DNA from: Escherichia coli
Lineage (GTDB): Bacteria; Pseudomonadota; Gammaproteobacteria; Enterobacterales; Enterobacteriaceae
Direction: 5' to 3' (one strand)
Assembly: GCF_030384885.1 (NCBI RefSeq)
Contig: NZ_CP128613.1
DNA: 64,000 nucleotides
Below are positions 50,101 through 53,100 of the stretch, one piece after another. Position 1 is the stretch's first letter. Each line of letters opens with the position of its first letter. Position numbers: made by a program.

Positions 50101-53100
50101 TAAGATTATGAAGTAAATCGTGAGAAATAAATACATGGCAAAAAATAATAATCACTTACCATCGAATATCGATAATTTCTCTATCCATAAGAAATACACC
50201 CACATATTTGACATTGCCTTTGTAAAGTTTGGTGCCAGACTGGCAGATGTACAAATGACACTATTCAAAAACACATCGCCCTCAGTTTATACACTTCAAT
50301 GTATAAGTGACGATGAATTGTTCTTTATTGATATTTACGAAGATGAGCAAGCCGTGTTAGCAGAACACCGAATTATTGATAATGAAGAAAATATTGTTTT
50401 CATCCCACATTGTTTTACAAAAATGTTAATGACTGCTTGTCAGGAAGCTAAAAAACAACCTGCTTTATACACGGAAGATATACTAATGAGCAAAAGAGTG
50501 CGTCGCCAGCGACTATCACAGACTATGCCTGCTCTGGTGAGCCTACGTGACATCCATATCGATTTTAGGACCAGTTACGGACATGGCGAAGCCTCATACG
50601 AGATCAATTTTAGTCCATACGCTATCGAAAATGGTGACTGGATGAACGCTAAAAGGTGCAGAAATTTTTCTGTTATGTTCGATGAGAATATGAATTTTAT
50701 AGAAGTTCAATGGTATAGGGATTAAAAAAACTTAAACCGAAACACGATTTGGAAACATAACAACCTCCACTTCAATTTCTGTTAAATTACTTAAATTGAT
50801 TATCAGTTTTAACTCTGAATGTTCGTTAATTGCCATCAAAATATCATTGCTAACAGAAATAAAGCTTATTGGGTTAGTCTGGGTAAAAAAGAATCCCCAG
50901 ACAAAATTATTATCAGCATCTATATATACCAACGATCCCTCGTTTCCCATCGTTCCATCACCGCCGTAGATTTTCCCGCCTTTATACTCAGTAAATGTCC
51001 AGTAGTCGACGGGAACCCAGCAATCAGAATCGTATTTTTCAATACTGGAGAAGGATGTATCACACAAAGGAGTACACCAGGCTTTCTTCTCTTTCGTGTA
51101 ATTATCGAAAGACTCCCGCCAGTTTAAAAGGGTGACAGTCCCATTCGCAAAGGTCAGGCTATCGATTCCAGGTAACTCTTTTTTCTCTTCCCAGCGTTTA
51201 AACATGACAATAAATCCTTTTATTTCATCACGTAGTATAACTCCCTAATGAAGACGTTCATTAGGGAGCCATGTGTTTAACCCGCCAAAAAGAACCTGAA
51301 CGCCGGGTTATGGGTTTCGTCGTGGCAATCGTAGCCCAGCTCATTTAGCCGGGTTTCGAAATCCGGTTCGTGGTCGCCAAGCTCGAACGCCGCCAGTACG
51401 CGCCCGTAGTCGGTACCGTGGCTGCGATAATGGAAAAGCGAAATGTTCCAGTGGGTACCTAGCGTGTTGAGGAAGCGCAGCAGCGCGCCCGGCGATTCCG
51501 GGAACTCGAAGCTGTAGAGGCGTTCCTGCAACGGATGCGATGGACGCCCACCAACCATATAGCGCACGTGTAGCTTCGCCATTTCGTCGTCGGAGAGATC
51601 AACCACGCTGTAGCCGCCATCGTTGAGCATCTGCAAAATTTCTTTACGCTCTTCGAGCCCTCGACTTAAGCGCACGCCGACAAAAATGCAGGCGTTTTTG
51701 GCATCGGCAAAGCGGTAGTTGAACTCGGTGACCGAGCGCCCGCCAAGCAGTTGGCAGAACTTCAGGAAGCTGCCCTTCTCTTCCGGGATAGTCACCGCCA
51801 GCAACGCTTCACGCTGTTCACCCAGTTCGCAGCGTTCCGAGACGTAGCGCAGGCCGTGGAAATTGACATTCGCCCCCGAAAGCACATGCGCCAGTCGTTC
51901 GCCGCGAATATTGTTCTGGGCGATGTATTTTTTCATTCCCGCCAGCGCCAGCGCGCCGGAAGGTTCCGCCACCGCGCGCACATCTTCGAATAAATCCTTC
52001 ATCGCCGCACAGATCGCATCACTATCGACGGTGATGATGTCGTCGAGATACTCCTGGCATAAACGGAATGTTTCGTCGCCAATGCGTTTTACCGCTACGC
52101 CTTCAGCAAATAGCCCCACGCGCGGCAGATCAACCGGATGACCCGCATCCAGCGCCGCTTTCAGGCAGGCGGAGTCTTCCGCTTCAACGGCAATCACTTT
52201 GATTTGCGGCATCAGTTGTTTGATCAGCACCGCCACACCCGCCGCCAGACCGCCGCCGCCGACCGGCACAAACACGCGGTCAAGATGGGCATCCTGCTGG
52301 AGCAGTTCCAGCGCCAGCGTGCCTTGCCCGGCGATCACCATCGGGTGGTCGAACGGCGGCACCCAGGTGAAGCCCTGCTGCTGTGACAGTTCGATCGCTT
52401 TCGCTTTTGCTTCGTCAAAGTTCGCGCCATGAAGCAACACTTCGCCGCCAAAGCCGCGTACCGCATCAACTTTGATATCGGCGGTGGCGGTTGGCATGAC
52501 GATCAGCGCCTTCACGCCTAACCGCGCGGAGGAAAACGCGACGCCCTGCGCGTGATTACCCGCCGAGGCAGTGATCACGCCATGCGCTTTTTGTTCTTCC
52601 GTCAGGCCCGCCATCATGGCGTATGCACCGCGCAGCTTAAAGCTGTGTACCGGCTGGCGATCTTCGCGCTTCACCAGAATCACGTTATCAAGACGCGACG
52701 AGAGCTTTTCCATTTTTTGTAGCGGCGTGACCTGCGCCGCCTCGTAAACCGGTGCACGTAGCACCGCTCTTAAATATTCGGCGCCTTCCGGAGCACCAGA
52801 CAGGGGTTGTGAGTCTGCCATCATTAACCCCCCAGTTTCGATTTATCGCGCACCGCGCCTTTGTCGGCGCTGGTTGCCAGGCTGGCGTAGGCGCGCAGGG
52901 CAAAGGAAACCTGACGTTCACGGTTTTTCGGCGTCCAGGCTTTGTCGCCACGGGCTTCCTGCGCTTCACGACGGGCCGCCAGTTCGGCATCGCTTACCTG
53001 TAACTGAATGCCACGGTTCGGTATGTCGATGGCGATCAGGTCGCCGTCTTCAATCAGGCCAATGCTGCCGCCGCTTGCCGCTTCCGGCGAGACGTGGCCG

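What the first reader, a model, noticed from the sequence alone, without database searches (positions are those of the whole stretch)
51205..51276. Insertion boundary coincides with the ilvGMEDA operon terminator
A perfect 12-bp stem-loop (CTCCCTAATGAA/TTCATTAGGGAG) sits between the ilvA stop and ORF3, followed by a good RBS and the ORF3 start on the same strand. ORF3 could therefore be expressed by terminator read-through from the ilv operon, which would couple an accessory gene to branched-chain amino acid regulation. The hairpin lacks a long U-run, so it may be a weak terminator.
Basis: seen in the sequence. Interest (0 to 1): 0.4.

Follow-up and report, generated by a model that had tools for sequence, protein, structure and literature searches.

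The report
Islet-borne leaky hairpin after ilvA
The hairpin is real, but it is not the classical E. coli ilv operon terminator: it arrives with a small three-gene accessory islet wedged between ilvA and ilvY, and most likely acts as a weak, leaky end-of-operon stem-loop that lets some ilv transcription run into the next gene. This is an ordinary kind of feature.

Summary
A perfect 12-bp stem with a 4-nt loop lies at 51241-51268 and extends to 16 pairs in ilvA-sense RNA. About 0.01 such hairpins are expected by chance per window.

The title claim is wrong in one key respect. In E. coli genomes without the insert, ilvA and ilvY either overlap by 4 bp or are separated by a REP element. The canonical-looking ilv terminator (a 7-bp GC-rich stem plus a T-run) lies inside the 3' end of ilvY. 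It is intact here at 49661-49679, now 1.6 kb downstream of ilvA.

The hairpin lies inside the 1,567-bp low-GC insert (49710-51276), 8 bp from its edge. It is single-copy and always travels with ORF3 next to ilvA in E. fergusonii, E. albertii and 2 of 5,426 complete E. coli genomes.

Its tail UUAUACUA is an imperfect U-tract and its terminator score is borderline. No consensus sigma-70 promoter lies upstream of ORF3, and ORF3 is under purifying selection.

Read-through expression of ORF3 is therefore the best-supported reading (about 0.5), but it is unproven. A weak promoter-like match, ATGAAC-16-TATACT, overlaps the hairpin. The function of ORF3 is unknown. Overall this is an ordinary feature in a moderately interesting accessory-gene slot.

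The parts
51241..51268 (-). Core hairpin with a 12-bp perfect stem (5 G-C pairs) and a 4-nt loop. dG is -16.5 kcal/mol in ilvA-sense RNA.
51237..51272 (-). Extended 16-pair stem-loop. It forms only in - strand RNA because two of the added pairs are G.U. dG is -21.1 kcal/mol.
51233..51240 (-). Tail UUAUACUA after the 12-bp stem, an imperfect U-tract. Its predicted RNA:DNA hybrid is among the weakest 3% of 8-mers in the window. TATACT (51239-51234) doubles as a -10-like hexamer, paired with a poor -35 (ATGAAC, 16-nt spacer) inside the hairpin.
51215..51219 (-). Shine-Dalgarno AAGGA, 9 nt upstream of the ORF3 ATG. It is invariant in all 6 haplotypes.
50732..51205 (-). ORF3, 157 aa. It belongs to a real protein family (47 homologues, about 50% identity in Paenibacillus, about 40% in Flavobacterium) with no Pfam, NCBIfam or PADLOC match. 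The AlphaFold2 model is all-beta with pLDDT 92. dN/dS is 0.16-0.47 among Escherichia species.
49710..51276 (.). Low-GC islet (31-47% GC against 55-62% in the flanks) of 1,567 bp. It replaces the 3 bp CCA of the empty site. Its right edge abuts the ilvA stop codon.
51277..52824 (-). ilvA, the last gene of ilvGMEDA (- strand). Its stop codon is at 51277-51279.
49654..49679 (-). Native ilvGMEDA-type intrinsic terminator inside the 3' end of ilvY: AGCGGCT-CATGC-AGCCGCT followed by a T-run (TTTTTTTG). It is conserved in K-12 and in empty-site E. coli. Here it lies 1.6 kb downstream of ilvA.
49727..50116 (+). ORF-A, 129 aa, with a signal peptide (AQA|KP). It starts 10 nt after the ilvY stop, and its SD overlaps that stop. 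It is conserved downstream of ilvY in several Enterobacteriaceae genera. Similarity to Tai4 is below threshold only.
50135..50725 (+). ORF-B, 196 aa. It is found only in Escherichia (E. coli, E. fergusonii). It converges on ORF3, with 6 bp between the two stop codons.
48826..49716 (+). ilvY. At the left junction its C-terminus changes from ...PNH* to ...PNY*.

Best explanation
The hairpin is an RNA stem-loop that belongs to a three-gene accessory islet found at the convergent ilvA/ilvY junction in the genus Escherichia. In islet-bearing genomes it sits where the first stable stem-loop after ilvA always sits.

It most likely works as the proximal 3'-end element of ilvGMEDA mRNA. That means a leaky intrinsic terminator with an imperfect, AU-rich tail, and/or a barrier to 3' exonucleases, as REP does in K-12. 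Polymerases that pass it transcribe ORF3, which has a good RBS and no recognisable promoter of its own. ORF3 would then behave as a weakly expressed sixth cistron of the ilv transcription unit.

Shown:
- the anatomy and the insert boundaries;
- single-copy status;
- co-occurrence with ORF3 next to ilvA in three species;
- the borderline terminator score;
- purifying selection on ORF3.

Inferred: partial termination, read-through expression, and any link to branched-chain amino-acid control.
For: - The insert boundaries place the hairpin inside the islet, 8 bp from the ilvA stop.
- The native terminator is retained in ilvY, 1.6 kb away.
- A stable stem-loop follows ilvA within about 5-35 nt in every configuration examined: this hairpin; REP in about 2,888 E. 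coli genomes; the ilvY-internal terminator 35 nt away in about 2,342; and an unrelated 12-13-bp hairpin in Salmonella and Pseudocitrobacter.
- In ilvA sense the discriminant is +2.3 against +32 for the native terminator. The tail hybrid is -5.9 kcal/mol (weakest 3% of 8-mers), against -3.7 for the native T-tract.
- In the 6 haplotypes from E. coli, E. fergusonii, E. albertii and a metagenome, 100% of the 96 pair cells are paired. All 3 variable stem positions change in a way that keeps pairing only in - strand RNA: G.U to A-U once and U-A to U.G twice.
- No sigma-70-like site was found on the - strand in 51150-53000 or in the spacer.
- ORF3 dN/dS is 0.16-0.47, so the gene is maintained and presumably expressed.
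- ORF3 homologues elsewhere lie 31-68 nt behind co-directional genes with no strong hairpin between them.
Against: - No expression data of any kind were available.
- No pair shows a compensatory change on both sides. The shuffle controls are uninformative with 6 closely related sequences.
- One of the three wobble changes is in a copy whose ORF3 is frameshifted.
- Substitution density in the stem-loop (3 of 36 positions) is not significantly lower than in the rest of the spacer (6 substitutions plus 1 indel in 35 positions).
- TATACT immediately after the stem could be a -10 box of an ORF3 promoter.
- If the 16-pair form prevails, the tail is ACUACGUG and the terminator score is clearly negative at -26.9. 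That would favour nearly complete read-through, or a purely stabilising role, rather than termination.
- The terminator discriminant and the hybrid parameters were entered from memory.
Confidence: 0.5

Rival explanations
1. The hairpin stops essentially all ilv transcription. ORF3 is transcribed from its own weak promoter, whose -10 (TATACT, 51239-51234) follows the stem directly and whose -35 lies in the hairpin. ORF3 would then be insulated from ilv regulation.
For: - TATACT matches the -10 consensus at 5 of 6 positions and is invariant in all haplotypes.
- A start about 7 nt downstream would give a 5' UTR of about 22 nt that contains the SD.
- The AU-rich tail may support appreciable termination.
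- AT-rich horizontally acquired DNA often carries promoter-like sequences (general knowledge).
Against: - The best -35 is ATGAAC (3 of 6) with a 16-nt spacer, giving 8 of 12 overall. That is below the scan threshold, and 54 such sites occur on this strand per 64 kb.
- There is no extended -10 TG.
- Conservation of TATACT is equally explained if it is the terminator tail, or simply by the low divergence of the whole spacer.
Confidence: 0.25
2. The hairpin acts on the opposite strand, or on both. It would stop transcripts coming from ilvY through ORF-A and ORF-B (+ strand) before they run antisense into ilvA, making it an insulator between convergent units.
For: - The consensus scan flags the + strand (tail CCATGTGTTT) as terminator-like.
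- ORF-B and ORF3 converge with only 6 bp between their stops and no terminator there.
- Overlapping convergent transcription of ilvA and ilvY is documented for K-12 (Sameshima et al. 1989, cited in PMC4161252).
Against: - The + strand tail hybrid is average at -9.3 kcal/mol (33rd percentile), and the discriminant is -22.8.
- The natural variants create C.A mismatches in + strand RNA but wobble pairs in - strand RNA. The 4-pair extension exists only on the - strand.
- The site lies 516 nt past the ORF-B stop.
Confidence: 0.15
3. The palindrome has no RNA-level role. It would be a DNA-level relic or site: the end of a defunct mobile element, a recombination site, or a protein operator carried in with the islet.
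For: - It lies 8 bp from the junction of low-GC foreign DNA.
- The same junction has accepted a REP element in other E. coli.
- A perfect 12-bp palindrome could bind a dimeric protein.
Against: - No matching repeat or inverted repeat was found at the other islet end.
- No integrase or transposase is present in the islet.
- It is single-copy in the window, in 5,426 E. coli genomes and in 100,044 species-representative genomes, where only the E. albertii homologous locus matches.
- The natural variants break DNA palindromy but keep RNA pairing.
- There is no Rfam match either.
Confidence: 0.1

Closest known systems
The distal terminator of ilvGMEDA in E. coli K-12, located within the convergent ilvY gene (Sameshima, Wek & Hatfield 1989, J Biol Chem 264:1224; title seen via PMC4161252, content recalled from memory)
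   Same: Both are stem-loops downstream of ilvA on the ilvA strand, and both are candidates for ending ilv transcripts.
   Different: They have different sequences and positions. The K-12-type element (AGCGGCT..AGCCGCT followed by a T-run) lies inside ilvY and has a canonical tail. It is still present here at 49661-49679. The hairpin in question is islet DNA, has no true U-tract, and scores +2.3 against +32.
REP (repetitive extragenic palindromic) element in the 51-bp ilvA-ilvY spacer of K-12-type E. coli
   Same: It occupies the same position, about 10 nt after the ilvA stop. It is a stable stem-loop without a U-tract. REPs are known (from memory) to protect upstream mRNA from 3' exonucleases and to cause partial termination, which is the role proposed here.
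   Different: REPs are multi-copy with a GC-rich consensus. This hairpin is single-copy, richer in A/T, unrelated in sequence and a perfect palindrome.
Leaky intrinsic terminators and intra-operon hairpins that set the ratio of upstream to downstream gene expression (for example the ilvE-ilvD spacer hairpin in this same window at 54704-54731)
   Same: A strong stem with a poor U-tract sits between co-directional genes, followed by an RBS. Read-through is expected.
   Different: Here the downstream gene is horizontally acquired and unrelated to the pathway. Efficiency has not been measured.
Post-ilvA hairpin of Salmonella enterica and Pseudocitrobacter (GATGACCGGAAG...CTTCCGGTCATC)
   Same: It is a 12-13-bp stem directly after the ilvA stop, followed by a different accessory gene on the ilvA strand. 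The Salmonella copy also lacks a U-tract.
   Different: There is no sequence similarity to the Escherichia hairpin. The Pseudocitrobacter copy has a proper TTTTT tail.

Membership tests
Intrinsic (Rho-independent) terminator | Stable stem-loop with G-C pairs and a 3-8-nt loop, just downstream of a stop codon | tested here: met
   The stem has 12 pairs (5 G-C) and a 4-nt loop, with dG -16.5 kcal/mol. It begins 9 nt after the ilvA stop (5 nt for the 16-pair form).
Intrinsic (Rho-independent) terminator | U-tract (about 5 or more U in 8 nt) immediately 3' of the stem on the transcribed strand | tested here: not met
   The ilvA-sense tail UUAUACUA has 4 U in 8. It is not called on the - strand by the scan. 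The discriminant is +2.3, which is borderline, and -26.9 for the 16-pair form. The tail hybrid is nevertheless weak, in the bottom 3% of 8-mers.
Intrinsic (Rho-independent) terminator | Measured termination of transcription (3' ends at the tail) | not testable with these tools
   No Term-seq or RNA-seq data for an islet-bearing strain could be accessed.
Native ilvGMEDA terminator of E. coli | Present at the ilvA/ilvY junction of E. coli genomes generally, and homologous to the K-12 element | tested here: not met
   The hairpin is found in only 2 of 5,426 genomes. The K-12 and empty-site element is a different sequence inside ilvY, retained here at 49661-49679.
REP/BIME or MITE-like dispersed palindromic repeat | Many copies per genome sharing a consensus | tested here: not met
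   There is 1 copy in the window with up to 3 mismatches allowed. It is found only at the homologous locus in E. coli genomes. The exact-stem scan of 100,044 species-representative genomes hits only E. albertii at the same locus.
Mobile-element end (IS, transposon, integron attC) | A matching second end, target duplication, or an associated recombinase | tested here: not met
   No terminal inverted or direct repeat joins the islet ends. There is no target duplication at the junctions: CCA is replaced. None of the three ORFs has a recombinase domain.
Described RNA families (Rfam 15) | Covariance-model match | tested here: not met
   Only two chance-level hits were found elsewhere in 49500-51500, and none on the hairpin.
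Polymorphic-toxin immunity protein (for ORF3) | Located in polyimmunity arrays or next to a toxin gene; small cytoplasmic protein | tested here: inconclusive
   One of six non-Escherichia contexts examined (Paenibacillus Root52) is an array with SUKH/SMI1_KNR4, YezG-like and Imm48 genes. The other contexts are unrelated. There is no adjacent toxin, no Pfam Imm family hit and no informative PDB fold match.
Tai4 (T6SS amidase immunity, PF16695) for ORF-A | Pfam match above the gathering score, and the Tai4 fold | tested here: not met
   The score is 17.9 bits against a cut-off of 27.1. Hits are below threshold in 13 of 20 homologues, with best E 3.9e-4. The Foldseek search of the PDB with a pLDDT-80 model found no Tai4 chain, and the sequence search of the PDB found none either.

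The most novel reading that the evidence does not exclude
The hairpin is a selected 'dosing valve' that travels with ORF3. It would restore a 3'-end stem-loop to ilvA after the native terminator was displaced. At the same time it would meter read-through so that an acquired, immunity-like gene is expressed at a low level set by branched-chain amino-acid attenuation. More broadly, the convergent ilvA/ilvY junction would be a conserved Enterobacteriaceae slot where both core transcription units (ilvY with ORF-A, ilvGMEDA with ORF3) recruit promoterless accessory genes.
Probability: 0.2. Interest if true: 0.4.

Novelty: new member of a known kind. Interest (0 to 1): 0.22.

Why it matters
If read-through is confirmed, this would be a clean natural example of a promoterless acquired gene expressed by piggy-backing on a core biosynthetic operon, with an imported stem-loop setting the dose.

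It also corrects an easy annotation error. In E. coli the ilv operon's canonical terminator lies inside ilvY, not in the spacer after ilvA.

The practical consequences are small. The islet is rare in E. coli, and its three proteins have no known function.

Tried and rejected
- **REP/MITE idea:** rejected because the hairpin is single-copy.
- **Mobile-element end or integron attC:** rejected. There is no second end, no target duplication and no recombinase.
- **Rfam:** no match.
- **Metagenome scan with a 20-nt spacer anchor:** 36 loci returned, but only 2 were genuine (L023, L024). The rest were chance matches in AT-rich DNA.
- **Covariation test:** underpowered. There are 6 haplotypes and no double-sided changes, so the shuffle control is uninformative.
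- **ORF3 function:** no hits in Pfam, NCBIfam or PADLOC. The confident AlphaFold2 model gave only weak matches resembling beta-propeller blades. The polyimmunity context was seen in one of six loci only.
- **ORF-A as Tai4:** the Pfam hit is below threshold and is not backed by PDB sequence or fold searches.
- **Sameshima et al. 1989 and the supplementary terminator table of PMC4161252:** neither could be read.
- **Simple donor for the islet:** none could be named. The flanks are an inter-species mosaic. For example, the window's ilvY is 99.2% identical to E. fergusonii L054 and about 93% to K-12, while ORF3 is 94.7% identical to both the E. fergusonii and the E. albertii copies.

Full report
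**1. The observation**

The window matches E. coli 2013C-4282 (NZ_CP027579). It is identical over 46000-52000 except for one G in a homopolymer run at 46086.

ilvGMEDA lies on the - strand, with ilvA at 51277-52824. The 71-nt spacer 51206-51276 contains CTCCCTAATGAA (51241-51252), a 4-nt loop, and TTCATTAGGGAG (51257-51268).

In ilvA-sense RNA four more pairs form (A-U, U-A, G.U, G.U), giving a 16-pair stem at 51237-51272. The dG is -16.5 kcal/mol for the core and -21.1 for the extended form.

The window holds four perfect hairpins with a stem of at least 12 bp and a loop of 3-8 nt, against 0.01 expected by chance. ORF3 (50732-51205, - strand, 157 aa) follows, with AAGGA 9 nt before its ATG. 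The description is accurate.

**2. Where the hairpin belongs**

Only 2 of 5,426 complete E. coli genomes carry the DNA between ilvY and ilvA.

Base-by-base comparison with an empty-site genome (L002) shows that ilvY and ilvA normally converge and overlap by 4 bp (TTAA). The window has 1,567 bp (49710-51276) in place of CCA. The hairpin is inside this low-GC insert (31-47% GC against 55-62% in the flanks), 8 bp from its right edge.

The E. coli ilv terminator-like element is elsewhere. AGCGGCT-CATGC-AGCCGCT followed by a T-run lies on the - strand within the last codons of ilvY (49661-49679). It is conserved in K-12 and in L002. This agrees with the classical description of overlapping convergent ilvA and ilvY transcription (Sameshima et al. 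1989, cited in PMC4161252; the paper itself could not be read).

K-12-type genomes have a REP element in a 51-bp spacer at the same point. Roughly 2,888 genomes have the REP form and 2,342 the overlap form.

The title claim that an insertion boundary coincides with the operon terminator is therefore wrong as stated. The islet brought its own hairpin and pushed the native terminator 1.6 kb away.

**3. The islet is old and shared**

Identical or nearly identical hairpin-plus-ORF3 modules sit directly after ilvA in two other species:
- E. albertii, inside a larger and variable island that ends at ilvY;
- E. fergusonii, with the same three-gene arrangement: ilvY, ORF-A and ORF-B on one strand, converging on ORF3 and ilvA on the other.

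ORF-A is a 129-aa secreted protein whose SD overlaps the ilvY stop. It is also found just downstream of ilvY in Salmonella, Pseudocitrobacter, Phytobacter and Atlantibacter. In those genera the gene behind ilvA differs: a 233-aa DUF2461 protein in Salmonella and a 94-aa ORF in Pseudocitrobacter. It is preceded by an unrelated 12-13-bp hairpin directly after the ilvA stop.

The flanks are an inter-species mosaic. 'Insertion' therefore holds only relative to typical E. coli, and the junction is a long-standing accessory slot.

**4. What the hairpin is not**

- It is single-copy in the window, in E. coli genomes and across 100,044 species-representative genomes, so it is not a REP or MITE.
- The islet ends share no repeat, there is no target duplication and there is no recombinase.
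- It has no Rfam match.

**5. How it probably works**

A stable stem-loop follows ilvA within 5-35 nt in every configuration seen. That suggests a required 3'-end element for the operon.

On the ilvA strand the tail is UUAUACUA:
- It is not a U-run, with 4 U in 8.
- It is not called by the scan on that strand.
- Its predicted RNA:DNA hybrid (-5.9 kcal/mol) is among the weakest 3% of 8-mers. The native tail gives -3.7 and the window mean is -10.4.
- A d'Aubenton-Carafa-type discriminant gives +2.3 (borderline) against +32 for the native terminator. The formula and the hybrid parameters were entered from memory.

The + strand scores -22.8 with an average tail, even though the simple scan flags it.

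Across six haplotypes all 96 pair cells are paired. The three variable stem positions change G.U to A-U once and U-A to U.G twice. These changes keep pairing only in - strand RNA. This is weak evidence: there is no double-sided covariation, one variant sits beside a frameshifted ORF3, and the stem is not significantly more conserved than the rest of the spacer.

No consensus sigma-70 promoter was found on the - strand between 51150 and 53000. The only candidate is ATGAAC, a 16-nt spacer and TATACT, matching 8 of 12 positions. That class occurs 54 times per strand in the window.

ORF3 is a real and conserved protein:
- It has 47 homologues.
- Its AlphaFold2 model has pLDDT 92.
- Its dN/dS is 0.16-0.47 within Escherichia.

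It is therefore presumably expressed. Read-through of a leaky hairpin is the simplest source of its mRNA. I put this at about 0.5, an own weak promoter at about 0.25, a + strand or bidirectional insulator role at about 0.15, and a DNA-level relic at about 0.1.

**6. ORF functions**

All three remain unknown.
- ORF3 has no family assignment and no informative fold match. One Paenibacillus homologue lies in a polyimmunity array, but the other contexts are unrelated.
- The Tai4 similarity of ORF-A is below threshold and is not confirmed by PDB sequence or fold searches.
- ORF-B is restricted to Escherichia.

**7. Verdict**

The hairpin is real and far beyond chance. Its reading as a weak terminator that permits read-through into ORF3 is reasonable but untested. 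Its identification as the ilvGMEDA terminator is incorrect, as is the idea that the insertion landed on that terminator. It is an ordinary kind of element, a leaky end-of-operon stem-loop, in a mildly interesting conserved accessory-gene slot.

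Noticed in passing
window 49710/51276 junction; L010 8877-8927; L002 5214-5217: The ilvA/ilvY junction is trimorphic in complete E. coli genomes. About 2,888 have a 51-bp spacer holding a REP element (K-12 type), about 2,342 have a direct 4-bp overlap of the two stop codons, and 2 have the three-gene islet.
   Followed up: partly
window 49710-49730 (+); L056 3988-4001; L057 3986-4001: ORF-A starts 10 nt after the ilvY stop, and its SD (TAAGGA) overlaps that stop. The same tight ilvY to ORF-A arrangement is found in Salmonella, Pseudocitrobacter, E. fergusonii and E. albertii. This suggests an old secreted-protein gene co-transcribed with ilvY that most E. coli have lost.
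   Followed up: partly
window ~51200-51232 (- strand): A second, weak AU-rich hairpin is predicted by both the single-sequence centroid and RNAalifold. It places the ORF3 SD in its loop and pairs the AUG. Several variable positions keep pairing through one-sided changes.
   Followed up: partly
window 54704-54731: A perfect 11-bp hairpin (AAATGGGACGG...CCGTCCCATTT) lies in the ilvE-ilvD spacer, inside the operon. It is another strong stem without a U-tail that transcription must pass to reach ilvD and ilvA.
   Followed up: no
window 47159-47185, 39013-39040, 2681-2713: These are the other three perfect hairpins of at least 12 bp in the window. The first lies between the convergent ppiC and ilvC ends. 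All look like ordinary intergenic terminators.
   Followed up: no
window 46231-46722 (+) and 55948-57594 (-): An intact PemK/MazF-family toxin gene is present where K-12 has the yifN pseudogene. ilvG is also intact (548 aa), whereas it is frameshifted in K-12.
   Followed up: no
window 46086: There is a one-base difference (a run of six G against five) from the NZ_CP027579 record, upstream of rep. It is the only difference seen in 46000-52000.
   Followed up: no
window 48826-53500 vs L054, L010: The window's ilvY and the 3' part of ilvD are 98.5-99.2% identical to E. fergusonii but about 93% identical to K-12. ilvC is closer to a second E. coli strain. The locus is an inter-species recombination mosaic.
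   Followed up: partly
L024 (metagenome); E. albertii cluster members P0050, P0052, P0055: Some copies of ORF3 are decayed. L024 has a frameshift after codon 9, and several E. albertii lineages carry 111-aa truncated versions. The gene is therefore dispensable in part of the population.
   Followed up: no
L053 3448-4446: One E. fergusonii lineage carries an extra PLDc_2-domain gene (332 aa) between ilvY and ORF-A. E. albertii islands carry other cargo, including a DUF5984 protein and a protein with a faint FMN_red match. The slot accumulates variable genes.
   Followed up: no
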